In this document: piece by piece, positions 35,714 through 53,915 of the stretch | Position numbering within the stretch: position 1 is the first letter of the stretch | Layout of the letters: each line of letters opens with the position of its first letter | Assembly: GCA_038200305.1 (NCBI GenBank) | Contig: JBBPYD010000153.1 | Coordinates: 17,018-81,017 of the forward strand | Direction: 5' to 3' | Source: Bryobacterales bacterium | Lineage (GTDB): Bacteria; Acidobacteriota; Terriglobia; Bryobacterales; Bryobacteraceae | Length of the DNA: 64,000 nucleotides | The notes under the pieces: generated by a model | Seen by the model: the letters and a program-made list of their open reading frames with translations, nothing else | Database searches by the model: none | Told to the model about the DNA's origin: nothing | Made by a program: the position numbers and the translations under genes

Positions 35714-37213
35714 TCAAGCCTTGATCAACGCCGCGGCCAAATCGGTCTTGCCCGCTACGTCGGTAAGACGGAAATCCCGGCCCAGATAGCGATAGGTGAG
35801 CTGCGTATGTTCAAGGCCGAGCATCGCGAGAATTGTGGCATGCAGGTCATGCAAGTGAATAGGATTTTCCGTCGCTCGCAATCCAAGCTCGTCGGTAGCG
35901 CCGATGACCTTGCCTCCCTTCACCCCGCCGCCTGCCATCCATGTGGTGAACCCGTAGGGATTGTGGTCGCGGCCGGAGCTGTCTCCCGCCCCGTTGCCAC
36001 CGCCGTCCGAGGTTGGGCTGCGCCCGAATTCGCCGCCCCACAAGACAAGCGTCGAATCGAGCAGGCCGCGCGACTTCAAATCTGTAATCAGCCCTGCAAC
36101 CGCCTTGTCTGTTGCGGCCGCTCGCGCCAGATGGTTTTTATCGCACTGCTTGTGGCCGTCCCAATCGGTTTCGTTCATGCCGTTTCCGGACCAGACTTGC
36201 ACAAACCGGACGCCGCGCTCAACCAGACGCCGAGCTAAAAGACACCGGCCGCCAAAGTCCGCCGTCAACGGATTATCGAGTCCGTAAAGCTTTTTGGTCG
36301 CCTCGGATTCGCTGGCTATGTTGGTCGCCTCAGGGGCCGCCATCTGCATGCGGAAGGCGAGTTCATAAGAGGCCATGCGAGCTGCCAATTCCGAGTCGTG
36401 ATTGCGTGTTTCAAGGTGCTGCTCATTCATCTTGCGCAACGTATCGAGCATGTCGCGCTGTTCTTCCTCTTTCATGTCCGCCGGGCGGCTGAGGTTAAGA
36501 ATCGCATCCGGACCATTTCGAAACGGTGTGCCCTGATAAGCTGCGGGAAGGAAGCCCTGTCCGTACACGGCAGGACCCGTCCTCACACCGCCTTCGAGGA
36601 GAACAACAAATCCGGGCAGGTTCTCATTCTCGCTGCCAAGACCATAGAGAACCCAGGAACCAAGGCTCGGCCGCCCGATACGCGGCCAGCCGTTATTCAT
36701 TAAGAACAGAGCCTGCGAATGCGTGAACCCCTCATGATGGCAGGACCGGATGACCGCAAGATCGTCAGCTCTCTGCGATGTATGTGGAAACAGATCCGAG
36801 ATTTCGATGCCCGACTGGCCGTACTTCTTAAACGTTCGTTTCGAGGCGAGAAGAACTGTGTCGCGGAACTTAGAGTCCTGGAAGTCGGCGTCACCGAAAC
36901 TTTCCGGCGGGTGCTGGCCGTTGAGTTTCGTCAGCAACGGCTTTGGATCGAACGTGTCGATATGGCTTGGCCCACCCTGCATGAATAGCGAAATAACGCT
37001 CTTAGCCGTTGCAGGCATCGGAGGCTTTTTCGGCGCCAGGGGATTCGCAGGCATAGGATCGGCAGCCGCGTTTCGCTCGAACAGGCTCATCGCGGCCAAC
37101 CAGCCAAGACCAAGACCTGAATTCTGCAGGAAGTGACGGCGTGTATCGGCGTCCCAGCTTCGTTTTTCTCTGGACCCGTCAATCCACCGGTTAATCGACT
37201 GGTTAATCGACAT
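35714..37213 (-). CDS. DUF1501 domain protein (sulfatase-like fold) with Tat signal
   Basis: 499 aa. RRHFLQNSGLGLGWLA Tat motif. GGPSHIDTFDPKP, C-terminal WGGEFGR...GRDH, HDLHATIL. Confidence 0.85.
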   Translation of the reverse strand: MSINQSINRWIDGSREKRSWDADTRRHFLQNSGLGLGWLAAMSLFERNAAADPMPANPLAPKKPPMPATAKSVISLFMQGGPSHIDTFDPKPLLTKLNGQHPPESFGDADFQDSKFRDTVLLASKRTFKKYGQSGIEISDLFPHTSQRADDLAVIRSCHHEGFTHSQALFLMNNGWPRIGRPSLGSWVLYGLGSENENLPGFVVLLEGGVRTGPAVYGQGFLPAAYQGTPFRNGPDAILNLSRPADMKEEEQRDMLDTLRKMNEQHLETRNHDSELAARMASYELAFRMQMAAPEATNIASESEATKKLYGLDNPLTADFGGRCLLARRLVERGVRFVQVWSGNGMNETDWDGHKQCDKNHLARAAATDKAVAGLITDLKSRGLLDSTLVLWGGEFGRSPTSDGGGNGAGDSSGRDHNPYGFTTWMAGGGVKGGKVIGATDELGLRATENPIHLHDLHATILAMLGLEHTQLTYRYLGRDFRLTDVAGKTDLAAALIKA

Positions 37214-39647
37214 AAATAAACTCGCTCATATTGAACAACAGCAAACAGAGTCTCGGCAAAGAATTCCGCTTCAGGTAATCGATCGCGCTTGTGCGTTCTT
37301 TAGGCGACGGCAGCCGGCCAAATGCGAGCAGCCAGCCGTTGTTAACCAAGGCTTCTGGATCATTGCCATTTTCTTTTTGAAGCCGGTTTGCAAACTTCTC
37401 AGCCTGGCCAAGGCTGAGCGGTCCGTTCATTAATGTGAGTGCCTGCGGCGCTACAGTCGACACGTCCCGGCGTGCGCAACTTGTCGCTGTATCGGGCGCA
37501 TCGAACGTTTGCAGCATCGGCAGCGTCATCGACCGCTTCATTTGTAAGTAAATAGTGCGCCGGGTATATTCCGACGGATCGGGATTCGCCGGCCACAAGT
37601 CTGGCATGCGCGCAGCTTGCAATTCTTCCTTGCTGAGCGGAGGAATAATTCCCATACCGCCCATCTTCAGATTGAGCGTACCCGCCACATCCAGGACGGT
37701 GTCCCGAATGGCATCCCCATCCAGGCGGCGGCGGTTCATACGGCCTAGCAAATGATTCTCCGGATCTTTCTCAAGACTACTCGCATCCGCGGTGCTCGAT
37801 TGCCGGTACGCATTCGACAGCATGATAAGGCGGTGCATCTGCTTAATGCTGTATCCGCGTTGCACAAATTCAGTAGCCAGCCAGTCGAGAAGTTCGGGAT
37901 GTGTGGGCGCATCGCCTTGCCGGCCGAAGTCGTTGGGCGTGGCCACGATGCCCGTGCCAAAGTGCCCCTGCCAAATGCGATTCATCATTACACGGTTTAC
38001 CAGCGGCTGATCCGGCGACGTAAGCCAAAGCGCCAAAGCTTTGCGGCGCTGTGGAACAAATAACACCCCGGCCGGCTCGTTGATGGCCGGACCCGGATTC
38101 AGAGCCGGAGGAAATCCGGGCTCCACTTTCTCACCCTTGTTCTTATATTCGCCGCGATTCAGGATGTGCGTATCGGGAATCGTCTCCTGGTGCGCCAGAA
38201 CATGCGCGGTGGCGTAATGGTTGGGAAGCCTGGTGTACAGTTCGCCGATCCGCTGCATCAGCGCCGCGCGTTCAGCCTGCTGTTCCGCCGATGGCATCTT
38301 GGGTGTAGGAGCGCTCGCGATCGTCTCTCCTGTTTCGACAGGTCCCGAACCATCTTTCTTTTCCGCGGAGATCTTCGCATCGGCATTCTGGGCCGCAGCG
38401 TTCCTGTTTCGCATCCCGCCACCGCGCTGCCGCGCCATCTGCTTCAGGCTCTCCACTTGAGAAATGAGCGGCATGGCACGCGTGTAAGTAAGAATGTCGA
38501 ATTGACTAACCAGGGGGATCTCGCGCTCTTCGCTCCCGGCAAAAAATGCGGCGAAGCTGTAATAGTCGCGCTGCCGTATCGGATCGAACTTGTGATCGTG
38601 GCAGCGCGCGCAGCCGAGGGTCAGCCCAAGGAAAGCCGCGCCCACTGTATCGACGGCATCCGCCTGCCATTCCGCCCGGTACTGGTCACCGTAGTACGTA
38701 AACTCGATCGGGAACGACCCAAGCGTGAAAAGACTGGTGCCAATGCGCCGGTTCACGTTCTCCTGTTTCTTTTTGGGCAGATGCAGCGTTCCTTCCAACT
38801 CCAAATTGCCCGGCCATATTTCGTCTGCCGCAATCTGTTCCTGAACGAAAGTGTTATAAGGCTTGTCCGCATTAAGAGAGCTAATTACATAATCGCGATA
38901 CCGCCACGCGGTCGGGAAGAAATGATCCGTTTCAAATCCTGACGTATCGGCGTAACGCACCAAATCCAGCCAGTACCGTCCCCATCGTTCGCCATAGCGC
39001 GGCGACTCCAGCAGCCGGTCGATCAGCTTTTCATAGGCATTGTCCGATTTGTCGCTGAGGAACTCGTCCACTTCTTTCGGAGTGGGCGGCAGTCCATGAA
39101 GGTCGAAGTAGGCCCGCCGGACCAACGTGCGCCGGTCTGCCGCGGGAGCCGGGTGTAGCCCTTCCTTGTCGAGCTTTGCCAGGATAAACGCATCGACCGG
39201 ATTGCGCACCCAAGCCGGGTTCTTCACTGGCGGAACAAGAGGCCGCTCCGGCTTCTTAAAAGACCACCAGGCCGATTGCTGGAGAGCTTTTGCACTCGCA
39301 TTCCATTTGGCGCCGCCATCAATCCATGCGCGCAGCGCTTCCACCTCGCTGGCCGGCAGAGGGGTCTTGCCCGGCGGCATCTGCAGATCGCCCTCGCGCT
39401 TTACGGCCTTAAAAAGCAGACTCTCCCCGGCTTTATGAGGAACAATAGCAGGTCCACGCGTCCCGCCCTTTAATAATGTTGCGGATTCCCGGACGTCTAG
39501 GCCGGACATCCTGGCATCGCCGTGGCAGCTTGCACACCTGGTGCTAAGGATCTTACGCGCGGACTCTTCGACGGATGTGGATTGGGCGAACAGCAAAGCC
39601 GGACCGATACCCGAAAACACGGCCAACCAAAGAGGTGAAGATCTCAT
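37203..39647 (-). CDS. PSCyt1 / DUF1549 / DUF1553 (PSD1) domain protein
   Basis: 814 aa. Signal peptide. CASCHG heme-like motif. NPVDAFILAKL...YFDLHGLPPTPKEVDEF (DUF1549). CARCHDHKFDPIRQRDYY (DUF1553). 11-nt overlap with the DUF1501 gene. Confidence 0.85.
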   Translation of the reverse strand: MRSSPLWLAVFSGIGPALLFAQSTSVEESARKILSTRCASCHGDARMSGLDVRESATLLKGGTRGPAIVPHKAGESLLFKAVKREGDLQMPPGKTPLPASEVEALRAWIDGGAKWNASAKALQQSAWWSFKKPERPLVPPVKNPAWVRNPVDAFILAKLDKEGLHPAPAADRRTLVRRAYFDLHGLPPTPKEVDEFLSDKSDNAYEKLIDRLLESPRYGERWGRYWLDLVRYADTSGFETDHFFPTAWRYRDYVISSLNADKPYNTFVQEQIAADEIWPGNLELEGTLHLPKKKQENVNRRIGTSLFTLGSFPIEFTYYGDQYRAEWQADAVDTVGAAFLGLTLGCARCHDHKFDPIRQRDYYSFAAFFAGSEEREIPLVSQFDILTYTRAMPLISQVESLKQMARQRGGGMRNRNAAAQNADAKISAEKKDGSGPVETGETIASAPTPKMPSAEQQAERAALMQRIGELYTRLPNHYATAHVLAHQETIPDTHILNRGEYKNKGEKVEPGFPPALNPGPAINEPAGVLFVPQRRKALALWLTSPDQPLVNRVMMNRIWQGHFGTGIVATPNDFGRQGDAPTHPELLDWLATEFVQRGYSIKQMHRLIMLSNAYRQSSTADASSLEKDPENHLLGRMNRRRLDGDAIRDTVLDVAGTLNLKMGGMGIIPPLSKEELQAARMPDLWPANPDPSEYTRRTIYLQMKRSMTLPMLQTFDAPDTATSCARRDVSTVAPQALTLMNGPLSLGQAEKFANRLQKENGNDPEALVNNGWLLAFGRLPSPKERTSAIDYLKRNSLPRLCLLLFNMSEFIYVD

Positions 39648-39836
39648 TGCTTCTCCGGGACGAGAGTTCTGTCATAAGGCAGACAATTAATAATGAAAAA
39701 GTGGCGGACTGAATGTCAAACACGAATTCGTTTCACAATAATGTTTCTTTGTGCGAAACGCGCGGTAACGGGCCGGATCTCACAACGAGGTTCTGCACTC
39801 ACACGCAGTGGCGCACTTATACTTGCGGGTTAATTA

Positions 39837-39855
39837 CGTTTCGCTAGGCGAAACG
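39837..39855 (-). terminator. perfect 8-bp stem / 3-nt loop hairpin downstream of the SDR gene
   Basis: cgtttcgc-tag-gcgaaacg read directly, 20 nt after the TAA at 39875-39877. The trailing U-tract is weak. A related cgtttcac...gtgcgaaacg element lies near 39729-39764. Confidence 0.4.
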
Positions 39856-39874
39856 GTAAGCGCATAGATTCGTT

Positions 39875-40633
39875 TTACCCGCGCCCTACAAGCGGCATCT
39901 TGGTGGCCATCAGTGTCATAAACTGTACGTTAGCCTCCAACGGCAGATTCGCAATGTAAAGCACCGCTTCGGCCACATGCCGTAAGTCCATTCGGGGTTC
40001 CGCCATCTTTCTACCATCGGCTTGCAAAACTCCAGAAGTGATCCGCTCCGTCATCTCAGTAGCCGCATTGCCGATATCGATCTGGCTGCAAGCAATGTCG
40101 TACTTACGACCGTCGAGTGAGAAGCACTTGGTCATCCCAGTGATCGCGTGTTTGGTTGAGGTGTAAGGGACATGGTTGGGCCGCGGAGCGGAGGCTGCAA
40201 TGGAACCGTTGTTGATGATGCGTCCGCCACGCGGCTCCTGGTCCTTCATCAACCGGAACGCTGCCTGCGCACAGAGAAAGGCGCCCGTGAGATTGACGTT
40301 GACGATAGCGCTCCACGTCTCGAAAGGCAGATCTTCAATCGGGATGCCAGGCGCGTTCAGACCGGCATTATTGAAAAGCACATCGAGACGGCCAAATGTT
40401 TCCTTTACTCTTGCGAAAAGCGCATTCACCGACTCCGGGCTGGCGACGTCGGCCGGAACTGCCAGCATCTTGCCACCGGACCCATTGGCCATCGCGATGG
40501 TTTTTTCAAGTGGTTCCGCGCGTCTTCCCGCCACCACCACGGAATACCCCGCAGCTTGCAACGCCAACGAAGCCGCGCGGCCTATACCGCTGCCGGCCCC
40601 GGTCACAAGCGCAATTCTGCCATTCATTCCCAT
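39875..40633 (-). CDS. SDR-family oxidoreductase
   Basis: 252 aa. [10 protein letters not shown] cofactor motif, NNAG, catalytic YTSTKHAI. Confidence 0.9.
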
Positions 40634-40821
40634 TTTGTAACGTGTCCCCTGTCTATGCGGTTAAATCCGGAACCATTATTGTGCCAGACTGTATTCCTTA
40701 GTGACAAAATCCAGTGAGCAGGCTTGATTTTCCTCGATCCTAGCCTGACACTATCTGAGAGTTCGGCGCCCCCGATAAGGGCTTGCTTCAGTGGTTCGAC
40801 TTCTTCTAAGAGGAGTATTGG

Positions 40822-41209
40822 ATGACCAGGTTAGCCAGTCCGTTCTGTAATTACAGCAGGTGGTGGATCTCAATTCTTCAACTCGGCCTGCTTCTGGCAG
40901 GCCGAGCCAACGCTCAAGATATCCGCGCTAAGCTGACAATCACTGTCACGGACCCCGCCGGTGCGTCTTTGCCGCCGCGGACATCGAACTCCGCAACGTG
41001 AAGACGGCTGAAGTTTTTCCGGCCAAAAACGGATGGAAGCGGAGTGTATTCTTTTCTCTTCCTGCAACCGGGTACCTACACAATGAAAGTCTCCGCGCCC
41101 GGATTAAATCCAGCGAACGCGACAATATTGTTCTTCAGTCTTTTCAGGCCAGTGGACTCGACATAAACTTGATATCGGCGGCGTGGCCGACAGCGTCACC
41201 GTAACCGCG
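40822..41209 (+). pseudogene. 5' fragment of a CarboxypepD_reg-type TonB-dependent receptor gene, with at least 4 frameshifts and 3' truncation
   Basis: Good RBS (aggag 40811-40815) and ATG 40822. Signal peptide ...LLLAGRANAQ. Family-typical peptides then alternate between frames: TITVTDPAGA / ADIELRNVKTAEVF / KTDGSGVYSFLFLQPGTYTMKVSAPG / KSSERDNIVLQSFQASGLDI / LDIGGVADSVTVTA. Homology stops near 41209. Confidence 0.75.
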
Positions 41210-42557
41210 GTTCCGCCCGGTCCTGCTTCCGGTTGCGCCGAAAATCCGCCCAGCGAATGGGACGGCCACCCTTAGCAATCAATTCGTGGATTGCCGTCAC
41301 CCGAGCCGGCCTGGGTAGATTGTGATTGGCGCACTCGCGCGCGACCTCCGCCTGCAGCCACTCCCCAAAATCCCCACGACCTCGCCGGTGGTGGCGCGGC
41401 GGAACAAACGGAGTGGCGCTGGTGAAGATTTTCTTCTCTTTACTCCGGCCTCCGCCCCAATGCACGGGAATACACCGCACATCCGGTCTTCCGCCTCCCT
41501 GCCACAACGAACTGAACTCATCAAGCGCCTGACACTCCAATGGATCGAATCCTTCGCGGCAGTGTACCAGCAGATGGTCCAGCCGCCCACCTCCGTTGTA
41601 GTCCAGCGGAAGATAAAACGCATGCCGGTGATCCCGCAGCGGCTCTCCGCTCCGGTCCTTTCCGCTGAATTTGACCGAGACGTGTTGCGGTCCCCCAGCC
41701 AATCGCTTGTGAATGCCCATCAGTTTTGTGCGCACTCGTTCGGCCACTTCCAGCGTCTCTGTCACGTCGGGCGGCACTTTTGAATCGAGTGCATACAGTA
41801 CCGAACAAATTCGCGAATCTTTGCGCTGCCTGTTTACGCGAACCTCCGGCGCGAAAGAATTCACCGGCCGCAGGTAGTCTACGTACCGCATCGCTGGCGG
41901 GTGGCTCCAGCCCGCCCCCAAGATGACTTCGGTTCCGGTCGCGATGGCTTCCATCCAGGTTAGATGCTTCAGCGTTTTGCCGCGCCCGATAGCCGCTGGT
42001 TTGTAATCGTGTGGTGGTATCGCAGACGCAACCGGCACAATCTCCATCTCACAATTCACAGACTCCGCGGATTGCGTGAAGCAATTCCACTCCACCCCGG
42101 ATACGCCCCGCAACGTGCGTGCTTCGATCCACGATTCAGATCGCCCCAAATAGTTCAGCCTGGAAAGCAATTCATCCAGGTCGTCCAAGAAATCCGAATC
42201 GGGCGTCAGGTCCGGCCACCCCATCAACACGGTAGCGCGTGAAGAAAGCACGACAAACCCATCGAAAATCAGAGTCTTGCTCTGAAGATCCTGTTCGTTC
42301 TTGCTGAGGAACGATCGGGTATGCGAAACCGTCGCGGACGGCAGGCGATAGCGCGGCGCGGAGGTCCCGAGCATGCCCAGTAATCGTTCCACACGCGACT
42401 CCTCCCATTCCGGGAGCTTGCGTTTCCAAACGTCATAAAGCGCGCGTATCAGTCGATAACCGGACGGAGGCCATTCTGGAATGCCCTCGTTCACATGCCG
42501 TCCCCAGGCGGTCGCATGATCGCGGCCCGCGGGAAACGCGAGTTCGATCAGTAGCAT
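41196..42557 (-). CDS. csb2: type I-G (I-U) CRISPR-associated Csb2 (Cas5-Cas6 fusion, GSU0054 family); C-terminus probably truncated
   Basis: 453 aa. N-terminus LLIELAFPAGRDHATAWGRHVNEGIPEWPPSGYRLIRAL matches the GRYHATPWGRHVNEG..EWPPSPWRL signature of the family. It ends ...RWADFRRNRKQDRAEPRLR without the terminal glycine-rich RAMP loop. The last 3-4 codons and the stop lie in TonB-receptor-derived sequence. Confidence 0.8.
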   Translation of the reverse strand: MLLIELAFPAGRDHATAWGRHVNEGIPEWPPSGYRLIRALYDVWKRKLPEWEESRVERLLGMLGTSAPRYRLPSATVSHTRSFLSKNEQDLQSKTLIFDGFVVLSSRATVLMGWPDLTPDSDFLDDLDELLSRLNYLGRSESWIEARTLRGVSGVEWNCFTQSAESVNCEMEIVPVASAIPPHDYKPAAIGRGKTLKHLTWMEAIATGTEVILGAGWSHPPAMRYVDYLRPVNSFAPEVRVNRQRKDSRICSVLYALDSKVPPDVTETLEVAERVRTKLMGIHKRLAGGPQHVSVKFSGKDRSGEPLRDHRHAFYLPLDYNGGGRLDHLLVHCREGFDPLECQALDEFSSLWQGGGRPDVRCIPVHWGGGRSKEKKIFTSATPFVPPRHHRRGRGDFGEWLQAEVARECANHNLPRPARVTAIHELIAKGGRPIRWADFRRNRKQDRAEPRLR

Positions 42558-42567
42558 GAGCGTCTCC

Positions 42568-43569
42568 CTAACCGTTCGCGGCTTGCGCTTCTTCTTTCTT
42601 ATCGGCTTTCAAAACCACTGCCGTCTCCACAATGGTGACCGCGGGAGATGCAAACAGGCCATCCTCTGTACATTTCTTGATGCTCGCTTGCACCGCTGCC
42701 AGCAACTCCGGTTCTTCCGGCAGTATGAAACCGGATGGGGATTTCACCGCAAGATCGCGGGCGGGCTCAAAGTTGCACGCCGTGCGTAAACGGAGGCCGC
42801 TCGACAGGAACCGGCGCACCTTCAACAGCGACAATCCAATCAGCAACTCCTGAGCCGGCTCCGACAGACGAAAACCGGAAATCAACGCGAGATCCAGGTT
42901 GAAGTACGCCATGATGCACCCGGCGGTATATTCCACCCTGGGATACGGCACATTCCCGTAAACGTCCTTGTCGTAGTCCTTGGCGCGGATCTTACCGGTC
43001 GGATCGAGCGCATTGTTCTTCACGCCACCGGATACCGCTTCCAACACGTCGGCCGCTTCGATGAAGCCCGTGAGAGCCCGCGGAAGCCTCACCCGACCGT
43101 CTTCCAGGTTCGCCATGAACACGCCATGCACCAGCGCGTTCGGATCGAAATAGAAGAACGTCTCCGCGATCTTATCCCAGGCGATCGGTTTTCCCTTTTC
43201 ATATCCCGACTTCTTGAGAAATTCGCCTTGAAACTTCTTGTTACTGATGATGAACGGCGAGTTGATGCGGTGCGCTTCAATCAACGAACTGGTTTCCGTC
43301 TCCGTGGCGCCCGTCAGCTTGGCTACGATATACGGCAGACCTTCCAAGTCCTTACCGAGCCGTGGGCCTTCCCCGTCCAAGCATGTCTTTTCGAGTCTGT
43401 TGGCTACCGATTGAGCCGATTCCACAAGCAGCATTCGCTTGCCATCGTGCCGCCGGTAATCGGCCGCGCCGAGGTCGGCGAAGCCGGTCGGCTGAAAACG
43501 GTCGCCCTGAAGGGGCTTGAGTTCCTGTTCCAAAAGCAATCGAGGTGCGTTTATGAGTTGTTTAAACAT
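42568..43569 (-). CDS. csb1: type I-G (I-U) CRISPR-associated Csb1 (Cas7, GSU0053 family)
   Basis: 333 aa. RLLLEQELKPLQGDRFQPTGFADLGAADY...LLVESAQSVANRLE matches the family N-terminal signature. 10 nt upstream of csb2. 8-nt overlap with the csx17 end. Confidence 0.85.
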   Translation of the reverse strand: MFKQLINAPRLLLEQELKPLQGDRFQPTGFADLGAADYRRHDGKRMLLVESAQSVANRLEKTCLDGEGPRLGKDLEGLPYIVAKLTGATETETSSLIEAHRINSPFIISNKKFQGEFLKKSGYEKGKPIAWDKIAETFFYFDPNALVHGVFMANLEDGRVRLPRALTGFIEAADVLEAVSGGVKNNALDPTGKIRAKDYDKDVYGNVPYPRVEYTAGCIMAYFNLDLALISGFRLSEPAQELLIGLSLLKVRRFLSSGLRLRTACNFEPARDLAVKSPSGFILPEEPELLAAVQASIKKCTEDGLFASPAVTIVETAVVLKADKKEEAQAANG

Positions 43570-45937
43570 GAGTTGTCATCCTTTTTGTCTGCGCCGCAAC
43601 TTTGGGTTCTTGCTCGTGGAGGACCAGTCGCGATAAGGCCTCGATCGATGGAACTGTAATTGGAATTAGCAGACTGGCCGCGAGCCGTGTTCCATCCACG
43701 CTCCCGGAAAACCGCGCTTTCACGGGCGCTCTGCCGGAGACCCGCAGTCTGCGCATCGCCACTTCGCAGGCATCTCCGATCCGGTTTCCCGTGAGCAACG
43801 ACAGAATCGCCGGTTCCGGGCGAGTCTCAGTCTCAACACCGGAATGAAACAGATGTTTCAGCACAGCATACTCTCTCGGGACGATCGACTGCGAAGGCTC
43901 CGAACGCCAGGAAGAGTACAACTCCGGTTTCACTTGATCCAGCGCCTCCTTGTCATGCCATTCCACCAGCGTCAAACCGAAAAGCAGATCCTCGATTCGG
44001 GATTCATCAATCCCGTCATTCTCGAGGAACGAAACCGCATCTCCAGGTTGCGCGCGGACAGCGCCCCAAAGCGGCAACGATTCGCAATTGAGCCGCTCGC
44101 CATCCATCATCCGGCGCTTCAAGACGCTCACCATTCTCTGCGCCAAGTTGCTCCCGGTCCACGCCGTCTGCCCCGCTCCTATCGCCCACTTCCAGGGTTC
44201 TTTCGGATGAATGGGCGTCAGGTTTGCGCGGATGCTCCCCACGTCGCCGGAACGGAGAATGGACGCCAGGGAAACGGCGATCCGGAAATTGGGCGATCTA
44301 TCGTTCGCCGCCAGCAGCCACCGGGTACTCAGTCCACCAAGAGGACTGTCCAGTTTTGGTTCCAGTTTGAGATCCCGCTGCGCGAAATATCGCTCCATGC
44401 GGCCAATCGCCGCCAGCACATTTTGGAGCCGGTCCTTTTCGCCGCGTAAGACGAATTCATAAACGCTCCCGTCGATCTGCCGCCGCAGTGAGCTGAACCG
44501 GGGCGGTGGAGCCTCCGATTTGAACCCGCGCGCGAACCGGTCGATTCGCGCTAGAACCCGATCAAGTTCTTCGAGCAGATCGACGTCTACCCGTTCCCGT
44601 ACTGGAAATCGACCCAATGGCAATGCGAGAAAACTGTCCCCACGCCGTTTAATAATGCTGTATCGCTGAAATGCGCCGATCCCCGCTGCGTTCCGAGAGA
44701 GACGGCTGCTTCGGCGAATTGCATCGCATCCTCGACAGGTTTACCGCCCCACTCCACCCGGCCTTCTCGCAACAGCGTACGCACTTCTTCAAACCGGCTG
44801 GGCCGCTCCCAAACAGGCATCCAAATCTCGGCTCGCGCGGAAGCCTGGTCTCCTTCATCGGCAGACCCGTACCCCACGGGGCGCGAGCGCACCGTAAATG
44901 GACTGCAGGAAACGCCATGAGTGCCGATACCTTGGCGGCGGGCCGCGCCGCTGGCCCAGGCGACTGCCCCTTCCATGGCGAACACAAAATCCCAATGGTT
45001 GATGGGGCAGCTTGCCCCGATCCCAGGACCTTGGTTATAGCCCCCGGCGCGGCCAGGGTCGAGTTGGCCGACTGCCCCGATAGCCAACTCGGTAGTCGAT
45101 TGGCCAAAGAGCGCATTGCCCAACAGGCTGTTTGTCGCAGGCTCCCCTGAAAGCAGCAATCCGGCGAGCCGCTCCATAAAGCAATTCGTGTAATCGAGCC
45201 GGCCTTCGCTGCCTCCGGTGCCGAGCAGCGGCGGATACATTAGCTTCGTCGTGGTTCGTAACACAACCGCGCTATCGATCCAATCCACCGAGCCGTCTCC
45301 CAGGCGATTGCGGCACGCCCGGACAATCTCATCTTTACCTCCCGTCCGGCGATTCTTCTTCGCCGCTGTGCGCAGTTTGGTCAATGATTTATAAATGGGC
45401 CTGGCCGCTGTTTCAACCTCTTTCATGCTCAAGGAAAGCAGAGGCTGGATATCGATTCCGTTCTTGCCGGCCGCATTTTCCAGATCCGCGAGGAGCTTCA
45501 ACAGTTCGTCTTGCGCCTTGCCCGGTCTGGATGCCGTGGCGGCTCCCCGCACCTCGCGAAGGATCTGATCCACCGTCATCTCACCCGCGCCAAGCTCCGG
45601 CCACGAGAAGATTTCCCTTGATCGTGCGTCCGTACTCCGCAAAGCGCGGCGAGTCGCTGCCGAGGATGGCGTCGATTCCATCCCGGCGGTCCCCTTCGCT
45701 AAATCCGCTCCCGCCATTCCACGGAGCAACGATCGGTGTAGGGCAGTACTCATCGAGGAAAAACCCGACCAGCCCATCTTCGTCGAACTTCGATTCCAGG
45801 CAGAACGCATTCCCTTCCCACCAGCCCCGCGCGCCGGGGTCGGCCTGTTCACTCACAAGACGCAAAACCGCCAGCGCCTTCAAGTACCCGGCCATGGGCT
45901 CGACCGTGCAGCCTTTGAGAATCAACCTGCTTTTCAC
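43562..45937 (-). pseudogene. csx17: type I-G (I-U) large subunit Csx17 (Cas8u2), interrupted by two frameshifts
   Basis: Three consecutive ORFs (45581-46057, 44587-45852, 43562-44623) together rebuild one Csx17. (1) VKSRLILKGCTVEPMAGYLKALAVLRLVSEQ...PTPIVAPWNGGSGF...AEYGRTIK. (2) EIFSWPELG...NHWDFVFAMEGAVAWA...SPFTVRS...EIWMPVWERP...SLGTQRG. (3) IGAFQRYSIIKRRGDSFLALPLGRFPV... The GTG start at 45937 overlaps the cas3 TGA (GTGA). Confidence 0.85.
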
Positions 45938-48300
45938 GCCAACACTTCCTTCGGCGCGTTGCTCGCGCGCCAGTCGGCCGCGACAATCAGCGCTTCCAAA
46001 TAAGCCAGCCGGAACACGCCGAGCCGGTCTTGCAGTTCCAGCATCCGGTCCGTCCACGATTCCACATCGTTTTCCGCCATCCCGAACAACATCGGCGCCA
46101 GATCGAGAGTCATGGCCGTAGTCGAAATACTACCGAGCTTGGCGGCCGGCAACAGATCTCCATCGTAAATGCCCCGCGCAAATTTGATGCTGCCTGGCTT
46201 CGGTTGCATCTCGCCGGGCCACGCGCGAATCGATAGCCGCACCTTTCCGTGATGCGCCGCCGCAAGATACACCGTCAGGTCCGATGCGCCATTCTGCAAC
46301 AACGCCAATGCGCTCGCCAGTTCGTGCCGGAAGTAGGGGCGCCCGTGCTTCCCGTTGCCGGTCGCCTTAGCCATCAACTCCCCAGCGCCACTGGGGTTTA
46401 CCGTCTTTTGGAAAACCTCATGCGCCTTGCCCCAATCATGATGAAGCGCCGCAATCAGTAGCTCTTCCCGGTATTGGCCAATCCTTAAATTCGGAAGCGC
46501 ATTGATAATTTCACGCATCTTCTCATGCACCTCACGGGTGTGCGCTTCCAGCGTCTGCGCATATTTCTGGAAGGTACGAGGCTCGTCGCCGGCGCCTTCT
46601 TCTTTTCCATGAGTTACAAGAGCCTCGGGAACCGGCTTCGTGGAATCCGTATCCCATCCGCGCGAAATACTGTATCCTCCCGATTTGGCGTTGGCGACCA
46701 GCATCATTCCCGGTCGAAGGGCATCCGCATCCACGGCCCTCCACTTGCTTTCCAGCGCGTTCCAGGAACAGATCTCGAACCGGTTGCGGCCTTTTTTGAC
46801 GCCCTTGAGCAGCGCCTCCACTTCGTGAATCGGCGCCGGACATAACTCATCCCGCCCCGGCGCGTCCTTTTTCGTAACAGGCGGATAGGCTTCGCGCCAC
46901 GCAATCAGCACATCGCGATCCTGTTCACTGCGAATGAACCGGGAGACGTCCAGATCGTACCCGGAAAGATCCTGCGTGGTGTCGAAGAGGTCGAGAAGAT
47001 CCCTTCGGCGAAGCACATGCTTTGGCGAGAATTCCGTCTGATGGTTTGGCAGGTCCGCAATTGTTGCCGAGGCCATTTGCGAGACTCTCGATTCAGCTTC
47101 CTGCAACTCTTCCACGGCGTAGGGCAGCGCGATTTCCTCTGTGATCTCGCCGGTTGCCGCCAATTTGAGTTTTCCAAACAACGGGCGATCCACCCAATAA
47201 ATTTCCGCATCGTCCAACTCCCCGGCGCGATTGCAGCGGCCGAAGCGCTGCACCAGACTAGACCACGGCGCCAGATCGGTAACCAGCAGCGCGGAGGAGA
47301 TATCGACGCCGGCTTCAATCACCTGCGTGGAGATCAAAATGCGCCCTTCCAACGGAACGGGACCATCCAGCAGACCCCGCCACCGCTCTTTTTCCGCAGG
47401 CCGGAAGCGCGAGTGGAGCAACTCGCATGGCTGATCCGGCGCGATCCGGCGCAACTCATCGAAGGTCTCGCGGGCCCGGCCCACCCGATTCACCACGGCA
47501 ATCGTTTGCGTTCCCGACCGATGATGGGCCGCGAGGAATTCCGCGAGGCCGGCGGGCCGGCAGCACTCCTCCGGCGCTTTCGCGACCTTCTTCGGCGCGT
47601 TCAATCGCCGCCTGAGGTCTTCGCGAGAGGAATCCTCCGCTGTCAACCGGAACATTTCGGGCGCGTGTATTTGGTCGACGCTCTTCAGCATCGCGGCGTC
47701 CATCGTGGCCGACATCCAAATGGTCGGGCAACTGCCGAAAACACCAAATCGCTCGCGAAAAGCCGCGAGCTGGCACGACGTCGCGAGGCCGTCGCCCATC
47801 AGTTGGACCTCATCCATGATCCAGGCGCAATCGTTCGACAGCATCCCAAAATGAGCGGGCCACTGATACCTGCTCATCCCATATCCCCGGTTGAGTCCTC
47901 TGCTCAGCAGCATTTCCTGCGTGCCGATCAGGATAGCGGGGTGCTCCGGTTGAATAGCCCAATCCTGGTTCACCTCGCCGCCCATCAGAATATGCACACT
48001 GACTTTTATGCCTGTGAGAAGCGCAAACCGTTCCACCCACTTGCGAACGTTCGTCCCGGTTTGCCTCACCAGCGTTCGCATGGGCAAACAATAGGCGAGC
48101 CTGCGCGAAGTCTCGTCAGGTCTCGTAGACAGATTCCAAAGCCAGGCAAGCACCACGGCCGCGGTTTTTCCGGCCCCGGTGGGGACATGAATGGCCCTGC
48201 TCTCCACCGGCTTACCCGCCAGGTCCACTTGGTACTTGTAAGGCCGCAAGCCAACGCACTCGTAAAAAAAGTCGCTGAATTCGGTTATTTTTTCTGACAC
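45934..48300 (-). CDS. cas3: CRISPR-associated helicase/nuclease Cas3 with C-terminal HD domain (type I-G/I-U architecture)
   Basis: 788 aa. N-terminal SF2 helicase: motif I VPTGAGKT, motif II MDEVQL, motif III MSAT, motif VI QRFGRCNRAG. C-terminal HD nuclease: LEAHTREVH, AALHHDWGKAHEVFQ, FRHELASALAL, AAAHHGKVR. Confidence 0.9.
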   Translation of the reverse strand: MSEKITEFSDFFYECVGLRPYKYQVDLAGKPVESRAIHVPTGAGKTAAVVLAWLWNLSTRPDETSRRLAYCLPMRTLVRQTGTNVRKWVERFALLTGIKVSVHILMGGEVNQDWAIQPEHPAILIGTQEMLLSRGLNRGYGMSRYQWPAHFGMLSNDCAWIMDEVQLMGDGLATSCQLAAFRERFGVFGSCPTIWMSATMDAAMLKSVDQIHAPEMFRLTAEDSSREDLRRRLNAPKKVAKAPEECCRPAGLAEFLAAHHRSGTQTIAVVNRVGRARETFDELRRIAPDQPCELLHSRFRPAEKERWRGLLDGPVPLEGRILISTQVIEAGVDISSALLVTDLAPWSSLVQRFGRCNRAGELDDAEIYWVDRPLFGKLKLAATGEITEEIALPYAVEELQEAESRVSQMASATIADLPNHQTEFSPKHVLRRRDLLDLFDTTQDLSGYDLDVSRFIRSEQDRDVLIAWREAYPPVTKKDAPGRDELCPAPIHEVEALLKGVKKGRNRFEICSWNALESKWRAVDADALRPGMMLVANAKSGGYSISRGWDTDSTKPVPEALVTHGKEEGAGDEPRTFQKYAQTLEAHTREVHEKMREIINALPNLRIGQYREELLIAALHHDWGKAHEVFQKTVNPSGAGELMAKATGNGKHGRPYFRHELASALALLQNGASDLTVYLAAAHHGKVRLSIRAWPGEMQPKPGSIKFARGIYDGDLLPAAKLGSISTTAMTLDLAPMLFGMAENDVESWTDRMLELQDRLGVFRLAYLEALIVAADWRASNAPKEVLA

Positions 48301-48361
48301 GTGTTCGCCTATTCTTTACTACCGCGAGCAAAAATACAAGTGATGAAAATGCAAATAAGTA

Positions 48362-48595
48362 CTATAGTGGTCTGGGCGCCCGTTTACTCTCCATGGGTGG
48401 ACCAGGAGTCTCACCCAACCCCCTCCGGCAACTCCCGCAACTCCACCAGCGCCGCATAACGGCATCTTTCGCGTCCCCAAACGGCGCAATGGCGCGTAAA
48501 ATGGCCGCTCGGACACGACCCCACTCCTCCTCCGACCGCTCCGCCTTCGTCATCACCGCGGCAATTTCCGGAAACACATTCCTCCGCACCCGCAT
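48362..48595 (-). CDS. hypothetical small protein immediately upstream of cas3 (speculative)
   Basis: Part of ORF 48362-48757. Only the distal 63-77 aa look protein-like (MRVRRNVFPEIAAVMTKAERSEEEWGRVRAAILRAIAPFGDAKDAVMRRWWSCGSC...). I recognise no family and see no clear RBS. Confidence 0.2.
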   Translation of the reverse strand: MRVRRNVFPEIAAVMTKAERSEEEWGRVRAAILRAIAPFGDAKDAVMRRWWSCGSCRRGLGETPGPPMESKRAPRPL

Positions 48596-48829
48596 CACAA
48601 TTCTGAAATTCACAGTCCGCCCCCCACATCCCGAAATTAACGCTCCTCCTATCTCGTCAAAAACTTGAAAATAATCAAAACCAAGCAAACAAACCAAATA
48701 GATAGCCAAAGATTTCGTGACCCGAAACCGAATCACAACTTTTTTCAACAATCGCACTTACAGCCCAACAACTTACCAGCACCCCGCCCGGCAACCCCCA
48801 CCGCCGTACCCTGGACCCAGGAAAACCAC

Positions 48830-49497
48830 ATGACCTTAAAACAACGACGTACCCAGGCACGCCAAAACGGCGCGAAAGCCGCCGGCACAAAATCCCCCGC
48901 CGGTCTCCAGAAATCTTCCATGAACTCCACCCGTCACGGCCTCACCGCCAAGACCTTGGTCCTTTCCAACGAATCCCCCGAAGCATTCGCCGAGCTCCTC
49001 GAATACCACATCGCCAAATTCCTCCCGCAAGACGAAGTCGAACAGGACCTCATCGACGAAATGGTCGCCTCCCTCTGGCGCCTCCGCCGTATGCGGACGC
49101 TCTAAACCGCGCTCTTTGATCTCCAGATGGACCGCCAGGAACAGGAGTCGCCAAATCCTTCACCCAGATCGACGAACCCACCCGCGTCGCCGTCGCCTTC
49201 GACCACATGGCCAACAACTCCAAGTCCCTCGCCCTCTACCTGCGCTACGAAACCACCTTCCGCCGCAGCTATGACCGCGCCTTGAACAACCTCCTCCGCC
49301 GCCGCTCCAAGCCAAAGGAATCAGCGCCATCCGAGCCGCACGAACCCCAAGAACCGAATTTACGAAACGACCCCAAACCGCTGCCCACAGAATCCCCGAT
49401 CCTCGTCTTCCCGATCGGTGCATCCGGTCCCGCCCCAACCTCCCAACCCCCCGTAACCGCCAAAGGTCACCCGAATGCCGATGCCCGGCCTTTATAA
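48830..49497 (+). pseudogene. conserved-looking hypothetical gene with an in-frame TAA (49103-49105) and a frameshift (about 49150-49165)
   Basis: MTLKQRRTQARQNGAKAAGTKSPAG...SNESPEAFAELLEYHIAKFLPQDEVEQDLIDEMVASLWRLRRMRTL*TALFDLQMDRQEQE is followed in another frame by KSFTQIDEPTRVAVAFDHMANNSKSLALYLRYETTFRRSYDRALNNLLRRR... The two parts read as one helical protein. Family unknown. Confidence 0.55.
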
Positions 49498-49505
49498 TGA
49501 GGAAT

Positions 49506-50993
49506 ATGTCCACCCTCGCTGCCATGCCATCGCCCCAGGTCTTGGCCAAATACGAGATCGTCATCGGCCTTGAGGTCCACGTGCAGCTAGGCACCCGCAC
49601 CAAAATTTACTGCGGTTGCCCCACCAGCTTCGGCGCGCCGCCCAACACCAACGTCTGCCCCGTTTGCCTCGGCCTTCCCGGTGCCCTGCCCGTCCTCAGT
49701 AAGCCCGCCGTCGAAATGGCCATCAAAGCCGCCATTGCGCTCAATTGCCAAGTCCGCCCCCTCTCGCGCCTCGCCCGCAAGAATTATTTCTATCCGGACC
49801 TCCCCAAGGGCTATCAGATCTCCCAATTCGATCAGCCCCTCGCCGAACACGGTTTCGTGGACATCAATGTGGCCGCCGCCATCGATGGCGTCCCGAAACG
49901 CATCGGCGTCACCAGGGTTCACATGGAAGACGATGCCGGCAAGAGCATTCACGACGGATTCAAAGACTCGGATCGCTACTCCTACGTCGATCTCAACCGC
50001 TCCGGCACCCCTCTCATCGAAATCGTCAGTGAGCCGGATATCCGCAGTGCCGGCGAAGCCTACGCCTATCTCACGGAGATCAAGCAGATGATGCAGTTCA
50101 TCGGTGTCTCCGATTGCGACATGGAGAAAGGCCAGCTCCGCTGCGACGCCAACATCTCTGTCCGTATCAAAGGCGCTCCAAAATTTGGAACCAAGGTCGA
50201 GGTGAAGAATCTCAACTCGTTCCGTCACGTCAAACTGGGCATCGAATATGAAACGCTCCGCCAGATCTCCATCGTCGAAAGCGGTGGCAAGGTCTTTCAG
50301 GAATCGCGCCTGTACAACGCCGATCTCGGCGAAACCGTCAGTATGCGCGGCAAGGAACAGGCGCACGATTATCGCTATTTCCCCGAACCCGACCTAGTTC
50401 CGCTCCGCATCGGCGAGGAATGGCTCCATCGCCTGCGAGCTGAAATACCCGAACTGCCCGCAACCATGAAGGCCCGGTTCGTCGAATCCTACGGTCTCCG
50501 CGAATACGACGCGCAGGTCCTCACCCTCACGCGTTCCTCCAGCGAATATTTCGAGCGCGCCGTCAAAGCATCTGGCGATCCGCGCGCTACGTCGAACTGG
50601 GTGACGGGTGACCTCATGGCCGCGCTCAAATCCGAAGGCAAAGACTTCTCCGAATCGCCCATCGCTCCGGAGAACCTCGGCGAGCTCGTTGCCTTGATCG
50701 GAAAGGGCGAGATCACAGGAAAGCTCGCGAAAGAGATCTTCTCGAAAATGCTTTCCACCGGCGACCCCGCCCCCCTCATCATGGAACGCGAAGGGCTGAA
50801 GCAGATCGGCGATACCGGCGCTCTCAGCAAAATTCTTGACGAAGTGCTCGCCGCAAACATCAAACAGGTGGAACAATATAAGAGCGGCAAGACGGCGGTG
50901 ATCGGCTTTCTTGTCGGCCAGGCCATGAAGGCGTCTCGCGGTCAGGCTAACCCGGCCACCATCAATGAGATGCTCAAGGCGAGGTTGCAATAA
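49506..50993 (+). CDS. gatB: Asp-tRNA(Asn)/Glu-tRNA(Gln) amidotransferase subunit B
   Basis: YEIVIGLEVHVQL, CPVCLGLPGALPV, RKNYFYPDLPKGYQISQ, and the C-terminal GatB/YqeY domain. Start is ATG 49506 or 49497. Confidence 0.95.
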   Translation: MSTLAAMPSPQVLAKYEIVIGLEVHVQLGTRTKIYCGCPTSFGAPPNTNVCPVCLGLPGALPVLSKPAVEMAIKAAIALNCQVRPLSRLARKNYFYPDLPKGYQISQFDQPLAEHGFVDINVAAAIDGVPKRIGVTRVHMEDDAGKSIHDGFKDSDRYSYVDLNRSGTPLIEIVSEPDIRSAGEAYAYLTEIKQMMQFIGVSDCDMEKGQLRCDANISVRIKGAPKFGTKVEVKNLNSFRHVKLGIEYETLRQISIVESGGKVFQESRLYNADLGETVSMRGKEQAHDYRYFPEPDLVPLRIGEEWLHRLRAEIPELPATMKARFVESYGLREYDAQVLTLTRSSSEYFERAVKASGDPRATSNWVTGDLMAALKSEGKDFSESPIAPENLGELVALIGKGEITGKLAKEIFSKMLSTGDPAPLIMEREGLKQIGDTGALSKILDEVLAANIKQVEQYKSGKTAVIGFLVGQAMKASRGQANPATINEMLKARLQ

Positions 50994-51014
50994 TAACCAT
51001 ATGGAAGGTCCCGC

Positions 51015-52259: not shown

Positions 52260-52266
52260 AGATCCG

Positions 52267-53508: not shown

Positions 53509-53915
53509 AAATAAACCAAATGACACGCGGACTATGCTGGGTTTTTCTTCTCATGGCTCTCACCGCATTCGCGCAGAAGGGCAAGCAGCCGAAGCCGCCT
53601 GAAGTCGAACTGATAGAAGCCAGCGCCCGCCGGCAGGAAGGTAATATCATGATCGACGCAAGGGTGAAGAATATTAGTGAGAAGCCCATCAAGGCTCTGG
53701 TCCTGTTGATCGACTTTATTGCTTCCGACCACAAACAGGTGATCACCACTAAGCGCGGCAGCCTCGACCAGGAGATGCTGGACCCAGGCGAGGAAGCCGG
53801 ATTTCGTGCTCAAATTGAGGATCCCTCCCGCGCCACCGAGTTTCGTATCAACTTTGAAGATGGCGGCGGCAAGTATCTTCGGGCCGAGAAGACCGGACCT
53901 TTTCCGGTCGAGTGA
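53505..53915 (+). CDS. small secreted hypothetical protein
   Basis: 136 aa. Signal peptide LCWVFLLMALTAFAQ. 4-nt overlap with the transporter stop. Confidence 0.6.
   Translation: MKINQMTRGLCWVFLLMALTAFAQKGKQPKPPEVELIEASARRQEGNIMIDARVKNISEKPIKALVLLIDFIASDHKQVITTKRGSLDQEMLDPGEEAGFRAQIEDPSRATEFRINFEDGGGKYLRAEKTGPFPVE

What the first reader, a model, noticed from the sequence alone, without database searches (positions are those of the whole stretch)
40822..41230. Candidate deletion scar: truncated csb2 3' end abuts a decayed 5' fragment of a convergent TonB-receptor gene
On the plus strand, a TonB-receptor gene starts normally with RBS, ATG 40822 and a signal peptide. It is riddled with frame changes, and family-like sequence ends with DSVTVTA at about 41209.

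On the minus strand, csb2 ends at 41196 with ...FRRNRKQDRAEPRLR*. Its last codons and stop are encoded by the complement of the receptor fragment. The glycine-rich C-terminal RAMP segment I expect in GSU0054-family proteins is absent.

The simplest reading is one deletion between two convergent genes. It would have removed the csb2 tail, cas4-cas1, cas2, the CRISPR array and about 1000 codons of the receptor gene.
Basis: inference. Interest (0 to 1): 0.6.

Follow-up and report, generated by a model that had tools for sequence, protein, structure and literature searches.

The report
Deletion scar in decaying CRISPR locus
A bacterial immune (CRISPR-Cas type I-G) gene cluster has lost its memory-writing genes, its spacer array and the end of one effector gene, and the cut end is fused to the stump of an older dead outer-membrane receptor gene; this is ordinary gene decay, here mapped to within four bases.

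Summary
csb2 (41196-42557, minus strand) encodes 453 aa. All uncut relatives have 470-510 aa. Homology to the closest relative (85% identical; csb2-cas2-cas4/cas1-array) stops abruptly at 41214. The last 35 residues are missing. They form three terminal beta-strands of the Cas6-like domain and carry the invariant GYGCHFGLG motif. Five unrelated codons and a stop replace them, read from the complement of the receptor stump.

On the plus strand, 40822-41209 encodes a signal peptide and a CarboxypepD_reg domain. This is the first ~130 of ~1200 codons of a TonB-dependent receptor, broken by four one-base indels. The junction lies at 41210-41213.

The genome assembly holds no cas1, no I-G cas2 or cas4, no CRISPR array and no I-G repeat. 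cas8g carries two one-base frameshifts. cas3 and cas7 look healthy. A separate assembly of a public run matches the window 100% across the junction.

"One deletion" is plausible but unproven, because no relative keeps the ancestral layout. Frameshifts are about 36 times denser in the receptor stump than in the cas genes (P = 1e-4). The receptor was therefore probably dead before the cas locus was cut. This is an ordinary decaying locus of low interest.

The parts
40822..41209 (+). 5' stump of a TonB-dependent receptor gene (pseudogene). It encodes a signal peptide and a CarboxypepD_reg domain, about 130 of about 1200 codons. Four one-base indels lie at about 40972-40980, 41025-41029, 41104-41105 and 41171. 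The first in-frame stop is TGA 40999-41001.
   Evidence: Three-frame translation. Pfam PF13620 E 5.6e-18 on the frame-corrected read. Collinear tblastn to the G014 receptor, 1209 aa. Indel contexts.
41210..41213 (.). Junction (gttc). These four bases cannot be assigned to either parent. Receptor homology ends at 41209 and csb2 homology starts at 41214.
   Evidence: DNA alignment with L011, protein alignments and reading of the sequence.
41196..42557 (-). csb2 (Cas5-Cas6 fusion), truncated. Residues 1-448 are homologous. The last 35 residues are replaced by EPRLR and a stop read from the complement of the receptor stump.
   Evidence: TIGR02165 E 4.6e-33, matching profile positions 1-455 of 492. 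Alignments A1 and A3. Model of the full-length relative.
42568..43569 (-). cas7g / csb1, intact (333 aa).
   Evidence: TIGR02570 E 2.2e-25. 7 lineage-specific changes against 13-30 in three relatives.
43562..45937 (-). cas8g / csx17 pseudogene. It is collinear with a 790-aa relative and is broken by two one-base indels in G-runs: plus-strand CCC 45615-45617 (one base extra) and CCCC 44681-44684 (one base missing).
   Evidence: Three ORF pieces all hit TIGR04113, covering profile positions 2-106, 125-352 and 365-716. tblastn with L030 Cas8g. Indel contexts.
45934..48300 (-). cas3g (helicase followed by HD nuclease), intact (788 aa).
   Evidence: TIGR02621 E 1.4e-216. The alignment with three relatives shows motif II DEVQ in all of them, and 36 lineage-specific changes against 26-45.
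48830..49490 (+). Context, right flank. A pseudogene copy of a multi-copy small-protein family, with a TAA nonsense codon at 49103-49105 and one frameshift. It lies directly upstream of gatB (49497).
   Evidence: Three-frame translation compared with intact paralogs in the genome.

Best explanation
[quoted passage not shown] It probably belongs to a Bryobacterales-type acidobacterium.

DNA loss by illegitimate recombination cut the operon inside csb2 at codon 448. No repeats or site-specific signals mark the ends. By comparison with the nearest relatives, the loss removed:
- the last 35 codons of csb2;
- cas2 and cas4-cas1;
- the leader and the 36-nt-repeat array.

The cut end was joined to the first ~130 codons of a convergent TonB-dependent receptor gene, whose remaining ~1070 codons are also gone. 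At least about 6 kb were lost.

The receptor stump carries about 36 times more frameshifts per base than the cas genes. It was therefore most likely already a pseudogene when the cas operon was cut.

The lost Csb2 tail forms the last three beta-strands of the Cas6-like domain. It carries the invariant His/Gly-rich motif, which is inferred to include the catalytic His described for T. sulfidiphilus Csb2. Without it, without an array and with a frameshifted Cas8g, no crRNA-guided complex can form. cas3 and cas7 are still intact only because too little time has passed.

Shown: the truncation, the junction, the absence of the missing parts, and the unequal decay.
Inferred: what lay in the gap, the number and order of events, and the loss of function.
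For: - Csb2 is 453 aa against 470-510 aa in relatives. Its homology ends at residue 448 and it lacks seven invariant tail positions (G453, F458, G469, H473, G475, G477, F479).
- There is an abrupt DNA homology break against L011.
- All 80 genomic Csb2 not cut by contig ends are full length, and most are followed by cas2, cas4-cas1 and an array. L011 itself reads csb2-cas2-cas4/cas1-array.
- The genome assembly has no Cas1 (PF01867; the control rang in 7 known genomes). It has no I-G cas2 or cas4-cas1 by tblastn, no array and no I-G repeat within 8 mismatches.
- The receptor stump is identified by Pfam and by collinearity with a 1209-aa receptor.
- Frameshift density is 4/388 nt against 2/7087 nt, P = 1e-4.
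- There is no excess of odd substitutions in Csb2, Cas3 or Cas7.
- cas8g has exactly two indels.
- The AlphaFold model of the full-length relative places strands 452-463, 466-470 and 473-481 in the lost tail, with pLDDT 86-91. The best structural neighbours are Cas6 and Cascade subunits, though weakly.
- PMC9638904: the C-terminal domain of Csb2 is the Cas6 nuclease, and H503A near the C-terminus abolishes repeat cleavage.
- A separate assembly is 100% identical across the junction.
- A parallel case: in L117 (69% Csb2) only the last 66 codons of cas4-cas1 remain between csb2 and the array.
Against: - No relative with the undeleted arrangement was found, so the content of the gap and the single-locus history are inferred.
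- SDR orthologs in metagenomes have no receptor beside them. The stump's left side may itself be a rearrangement border.
- The MAG is about 94% complete and arrays often fail to assemble or bin. Absence of an array or cas1 elsewhere is not absolute.
The second assembly may rest on the same reads.
- Csb1/Cas7 of a Bifidobacterium I-G system was reported to cleave pre-crRNA too (bioRxiv 10.1101/2022.08.19.504415). Loss of the Csb2 active site alone might not abolish processing.
- The equivalence of H473 with T. sulfidiphilus H503 was not tested by alignment.
Confidence: 0.6

Rival explanations
1. One deletion hit two intact, neighbouring, convergent genes at once, and both sides have decayed only since then.
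For: There is one clean junction with only four unassigned bases. The gene content expected between csb2 and a convergent neighbour matches what is missing.
Against: Frameshift density differs about 36-fold between the stump and the cas module (P = 1e-4). Cas3, Cas7 and Csb2 show no relaxed-constraint signal. Equal-age neutral decay is therefore unlikely, unless the cas genes stayed under selection without an array, which has no known basis.
Confidence: 0.15
2. An already incomplete I-G block (cas3 to codon 448 of csb2) was acquired by horizontal transfer. Illegitimate recombination inserted it into a decaying, rearrangement-prone region, between an old receptor stump and an old pseudogene upstream of gatB.
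For: - Both flanks are pseudogenes with more lesions per base than the cas block.
- Related I-G loci sit on mobile elements: a serine recombinase with DUF2924 in L030, and a TraG-like protein in L033/L034.
- The region upstream of gatB differs among all three genus members and carries transposase remnants in one of them.
- SDR orthologs have other neighbours.
Against: - No integrase, tRNA, terminal direct or inverted repeats, or att-like sites lie at the borders.
- The GC content of the cas block (56-64%) is close to that of its surroundings (52-62%).
- A fragment ending inside a gene is more simply a deletion end-point.
Confidence: 0.18
3. It is an assembly or sequencing artefact. The junction is a chimeric join and the frameshifts are homopolymer errors.
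For: Most indels lie in short runs (A5, G3, G4, TT). The source is a 259-contig MAG. Reads could not be checked.
Against: - An independent Logan contig of 15.4 kb is 100% identical across the junction and all indels.
- The lesions cluster within 8.7 kb, while ORFs of 600-1189 aa elsewhere in the window are unbroken.
- The runs are short (3-5 bases).
Confidence: 0.03
4. The short Csb2 is a working variant, and the array-less module has a CRISPR-independent role.
For: cas3 and cas7 are intact and show no excess substitutions.
Against: - cas8g is frameshifted twice.
- The new Csb2 tail is read from the complement of a pseudogene.
- No other Csb2 among 80 loci and 120 database hits ends there.
- The lost tail holds seven invariant residues.
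Confidence: 0.03

Closest known systems
Type I-G (formerly I-U) CRISPR-Cas, as characterised in Thioalkalivibrio sulfidiphilus (Shangguan et al. 2022, PMC9638904) and defined by the Geobacter GSU0051-0054 TIGRFAM models
   Same: The same four interference genes lie in the same order (cas3g, cas8g/csx17, cas7g/csb1, csb2), and all hit the I-G equivalog models. [quoted passage not shown]
   Different: There are no cas4-cas1, no cas2 and no array. Csb2 lacks its last 35 residues, including the invariant His-Gly motif. cas8g is frameshifted twice. The locus is a remnant, not a working system.
L011, a soil-metagenome contig (JGI Ga0618246_0003086) carrying the closest Csb2 (85% identity)
   Same: About 85% DNA identity through csb2 up to window position 41214.
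   Different: Its csb2 continues for 35 more codons and is followed by cas2, cas4-cas1 and a 36-nt-repeat array starting CTTTCCGCGATCAATTGATCGCGG.
L117, a Bryobacteraceae MAG (CAVYPH010000004.1), with L030 as a second case: I-G loci that have lost the adaptation module
   Same: They belong to the same I-G clade (Csb2 69-70% identical). An independent deletion starts just after csb2: in L117 only the last 66 codons of cas4-cas1 remain. L030 has csb2 followed directly by a degenerate array.
   Different: Their csb2 is complete and an array survives. The window's deletion reached into csb2 and took the array as well.
TonB-dependent receptors with an N-terminal carboxypeptidase-regulatory-like domain, a very large paralog family in Acidobacteriota (104 or more matches in this genome)
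   Same: A signal peptide and a CarboxypepD_reg domain ending in the typical ...VTVTA motif.
   Different: The plug and the beta-barrel (about 1070 codons) are missing, and the stump has four frameshifts.

Membership tests
[quoted passage not shown] | Cas3g with helicase followed by a C-terminal HD domain (TIGR02621) | tested here: met
   E 1.4e-216, 722 bits against a cut-off of 400. The 788-aa ORF is intact.
[quoted passage not shown] | Cas8g/Csx17 large subunit (TIGR04113) | tested here: inconclusive
   The sequence is present and collinear over the whole profile, but it is split by two one-base frameshifts. The family is met; an intact gene is not.
[quoted passage not shown] | Cas7g/Csb1 (TIGR02570) | tested here: met
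   E 2.2e-25, 89.5 bits against a cut-off of 38.
[quoted passage not shown] | Full-length Csb2 (Cas5-Cas6 fusion, TIGR02165) with a C-terminal Gly-rich/His motif | tested here: not met
   The profile is matched only to position 455 of 492. The last 35 residues and seven invariant positions are absent.
[quoted passage not shown] | Adaptation genes cas4-cas1 (fused) and cas2 | tested here: not met
   There is no PF01867 hit in the whole assembly, with a positive control in 7 known genomes. tblastn with L011 Cas2 and Cas4-Cas1 gives no hit better than E 0.15. Caveat: the MAG is about 94% complete.
[quoted passage not shown] | CRISPR array with the clade's 36-nt palindromic repeat | tested here: not met
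   A k-mer array scan of the genome finds only a 48-bp tandem repeat without spacers. No match to three clade repeats within 8 mismatches. No array in the window.
TonB-dependent receptor (CarboxypepD_reg type) | N-terminal signal peptide and CarboxypepD_reg domain (PF13620) | tested here: met
   E 5.6e-18 on the frame-corrected read. Met only after four frame corrections.
TonB-dependent receptor (CarboxypepD_reg type) | Plug domain and 22-strand beta-barrel | tested here: not met
   Homology to the 1209-aa relative ends at residue ~140. The only other receptor matches on this contig are two full-length paralogs (27-29% identity); none lies next to the cas block.
Cas6-like RNA endonuclease domain (C-terminal half of Csb2) | Complete second RRM with the terminal beta-strands and the catalytic His | tested here: not met
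   The model of the full-length relative has strands 452-463, 466-470 and 473-481 in the lost part. The catalytic His near the C-terminus is taken from PMC9638904. The equivalence H473 = H503 is inferred, not aligned.

The most novel reading that the evidence does not exclude
Loss of the csb2-proximal adaptation module may be a recurrent, perhaps favoured, route of decay in Bryobacterales-type I-G loci. The window, L117, L030, L132 and L137 all lack cas2 and most or all of cas4-cas1 just downstream of csb2. One possible cause is that spacer acquisition carries an autoimmunity cost. On this reading the window shows the end stage, where the deletion overshot into csb2 and the array.
Probability: 0.1. 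Interest if true: 0.4.

Novelty: new member of a known kind. Interest (0 to 1): 0.18.

Why it matters
The main value is for annotation. The cas genes here should be called a non-functional I-G remnant: csb2 truncated, cas8g a pseudogene, and no adaptation genes or array. The 59-codon ORF at 40822 should be called a receptor pseudogene.

It is also a cleanly mapped example of how CRISPR-Cas loci die, with a junction resolved to four bases. The flanking stump is measurably older than the cas lesions. This shows that a single tidy junction need not mean a single event that hit two working genes. Together with L117 and L030, it adds to the evidence that adaptation modules of I-G loci in soil Acidobacteriota are lost repeatedly.

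Tried and rejected
- Synteny with relatives gave no ancestral layout:
  - A DNA search of 40 relatives matched only the SDR gene.
  - Genus members G001 and G003 share gatB and its downstream genes but not the upstream region.
  - The best receptor ortholog (G014, 57%) has unrelated neighbours.
- The metagenome scan with the SDR protein found orthologs at 87% and 80%. Their neighbours are a molybdenum oxidoreductase pair and a divergent PSD1 gene, not a receptor.
- Exact-protein look-ups of the SDR and Cas7 found only one other contig, identical to the window.
- Mobile-element signals at the borders were sought and none was found:
  - No significant direct or inverted repeats.
  - No tRNA in the window.
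  - No Rfam match.
  - No compositional step.
- The 0.5 kb upstream of cas3 has no similarity to related cas loci or to the rest of the genome and no Pfam family.
- A PDB sequence search with full-length Csb2 found nothing. The fold search gave only weak Cas6/Cascade matches (E 0.007-0.03).
- Simple insertion of a cas island into the receptor gene was rejected, because no receptor 3' part lies on the far side of the block.
- Cas3 motif II DEVQ was rejected as a lesion, because all three compared relatives share it.

Full report
**What is there**

The window carries four co-directional minus-strand genes. All hit the NCBIfam equivalog models of type I-G CRISPR-Cas.
- cas3g, 45934-48300 (TIGR02621, E 1.4e-216).
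- cas8g/csx17, in three ORF pieces covering profile positions 2-106, 125-352 and 365-716 of TIGR04113.
- cas7g/csb1, 42568-43569 (TIGR02570).
- csb2, 41196-42557 (TIGR02165, matched only to profile position 455 of 492).

An SDR gene lies to the left (39875-40633, minus strand). gatB lies to the right (49497-50993, plus strand).

**The csb2 truncation**

- A database search returned about 900 Csb2 relatives. The uncut ones among the best 120 are about 470-510 aa, against 453 aa here. The best is 85% identical and 483 aa long.
- In alignment A1 the window protein follows the family up to ...FRRNRKQDRA (residue 448). It then reads EPRLR-stop, where every relative continues with (R/V)xSG(F/Y)GxRxEF...ALGYGCHFGLGxF.
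- In a 33-sequence alignment, seven invariant columns lie in the lost 35 residues: G453, F458, G469, H473, G475, G477 and F479.
- At DNA level, identity to the closest relative's contig L011 is about 85% up to window position 41214 and then disappears.
- In 80 loci from named genomes, every Csb2 not cut by a contig end reaches residue 479-483 of 483. The short end is therefore unique to this locus.
- An AlphaFold model of the full-length relative (mean pLDDT 81) puts three confident beta-strands (452-463, 466-470, 473-481) in the lost part.
- The model's best PDB neighbours are Cas6 and Cascade subunits, but the scores are weak.
- Shangguan et al. (PMC9638904) showed that the C-terminal domain of Csb2 is the Cas6 nuclease and binds the repeat hairpin. 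They also showed that a His near the C-terminus (H503) is catalytic.
- That H473 is the equivalent residue is my inference, not a tested alignment.

**The receptor stump**

- From ATG 40822, preceded by GAGGAG, the plus strand encodes a signal-peptide-like start.
- After four one-base frame corrections it encodes a CarboxypepD_reg domain ending ...DSVTVTA at 41209.
- The corrected 130 aa hit PF13620 at E 5.6e-18.
- They are collinear with residues 17-140 of a 1209-aa receptor of a same-family genome (57% identity; the next best hit is 47%). About 1070 codons are therefore missing.
- The indels are as follows:
  - one base missing in a GC-rich repeat at about 40972-40980;
  - one extra A in the run at 41025-41029;
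  - one T missing at 41104-41105;
  - one G missing at 41171.
- The uncorrected ORF stops after 59 codons.
- Receptor homology ends at 41209 and csb2 homology begins at 41214. Four bases (gttc) cannot be assigned to either side.

**What is missing**

- In L011, csb2 is followed by cas2, a cas4-cas1 fusion and an array with the clade's 36-nt palindromic repeat.
- Most of the 80 genomic loci show the same order.
- The window's genome is a 259-contig MAG, about 94% complete. In it:
  - no Cas1 was found, with a positive control in 7 known genomes;
  - tblastn found no I-G cas2 or cas4-cas1;
  - no array was found; the only periodic k-mer hit is a 48-bp tandem repeat without spacers;
  - nothing lies within 8 mismatches of three clade repeats.

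**State of the rest of the module**

- cas8g is collinear with a 790-aa relative. It has exactly two one-base indels in G-runs: plus-strand CCC 45615-45617 and CCCC 44681-44684.
- Csb2, Cas3 and Cas7 carry no more lineage-specific changes at otherwise invariant columns than their relatives do. Counts are 3 against 1-9, 36 against 26-45, and 7 against 13-30.
- Cas3 motif II reads DEVQ in all compared I-G relatives, so it is a clade trait and not a lesion.
- The cas damage is therefore recent.

**Is it real?**

- A Logan contig from run SRR24807095 (15.4 kb) is 100% identical to window 38584-53569. It includes the junction and every indel.
- Lesions cluster between 40.8 and 49.5 kb. ORFs of 600-1189 aa elsewhere in the window are unbroken.

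**One deletion or several events?**

- Frameshifts are 4 in 388 nt in the stump against 2 in 7087 nt in the cas module. The binomial probability of four or more of six falling in the stump is 1e-4.
- The gene on the other flank (48830-49490) belongs to a small-protein family with at least 18 copies in this genome. It is also a pseudogene, with a TAA nonsense codon at 49103-49105 and one frameshift.
- Both flanks are thus older wrecks than the cas block.
- Relatives give no ancestral layout:
  - genus members share gatB and its two downstream genes but differ upstream;
  - the nearest SDR orthologs (87% and 80%) are flanked by a molybdenum oxidoreductase pair and a divergent PSD1 gene, with no receptor;
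  - the best receptor ortholog has no shared neighbours.
- No repeats, tRNA, integrase or compositional step mark the borders.
- My preferred history has two steps. The receptor paralog was already dead. Another frameshifted receptor lies on contig C65. A later deletion then ran from codon 448 of csb2 through cas2, cas4-cas1, the array and the rest of the dead receptor.
- The rivals are these:
  - acquisition of an already incomplete cas block beside old pseudogenes; related I-G loci do ride on mobile elements;
  - an artefact or a working short variant, both unlikely.

**Comparison and verdict**

- The locus works like nothing any more. It is a member, by descent, of type I-G. It fails three defining features of a complete system: full-length Csb2, an adaptation module and an array.
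- Independent adaptation-module losses occur in its nearest relatives. In L117 only the last 66 codons of cas4-cas1 remain between csb2 and the array. In L030, csb2 abuts a degenerate array.
- Earlier notes of this scan describe similar eroded I-G loci in other genomes. I did not test those.
- This is ordinary CRISPR-Cas decay, mapped precisely.

Noticed in passing
window 48665-49490, with copies on genome contigs C104, C193, C123, C203, C62, C13, C88 and others: A family of small proteins of about 200-230 aa (MxxKQRRxQARxNGAKAAGTKSPxG...WRLRR...LRYETxFxR) has at least 18 copies in this genome. Many lie within a few hundred bases of contig ends. It has no Pfam match. The window copy has a TAA nonsense codon (49103-49105) and a frameshift. 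Copies or fragments also lie upstream of gatB in two genus relatives. It may belong to a repeated or mobile element.
   Followed up: partly
genome contig C65:33479-37027 (outside the window): A second CarboxypepD_reg-type TonB receptor gene is split over three reading-frame segments (frames 2, 1, 2), which means two frameshifts. Receptor paralogs seem to decay repeatedly in this genome.
   Followed up: partly
L117:7446-8606 (Bryobacteraceae MAG CAVYPH010000004.1): This is the closest genomic relative of the cas locus. After an intact csb2 it keeps only the last 66 codons of cas4-cas1, followed by an 11-repeat array. This is an independent deletion of cas2 and most of cas4-cas1.
   Followed up: partly
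L030:1-13263 and L033/L034:1-3000: Related I-G loci sit next to mobile-element genes. L030 has a large serine recombinase and DUF2924, and its array directly after csb2 has degenerate repeats (64-97% identity, with indels). L033 and L034 have a TraG-like coupling protein and a PIN toxin gene upstream of cas3.
   Followed up: no
window 47803-47814: Cas3 helicase motif II reads DEVQ instead of DExH. The same DEVQLMGDG is present in all three compared I-G Cas3 proteins, so it is a clade trait.
   Followed up: yes
genome contig C208:20212-20410: A 48-bp unit is repeated four times in tandem without spacers, so it is not a CRISPR array. It lies a few hundred bases from another copy of the small-protein family.
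   Followed up: no
window 35714-40633 compared with L037 and L038: In the two closest SDR-ortholog contigs, a 2Fe-2S and molybdopterin oxidoreductase pair lies between a divergent PSD1/DUF1553 gene and the SDR gene. In the window the SDR is followed directly by PSD1 and DUF1501 on the same strand, and the oxidoreductase pair is absent. The SDR side of the stump has therefore also been rearranged.
   Followed up: partly
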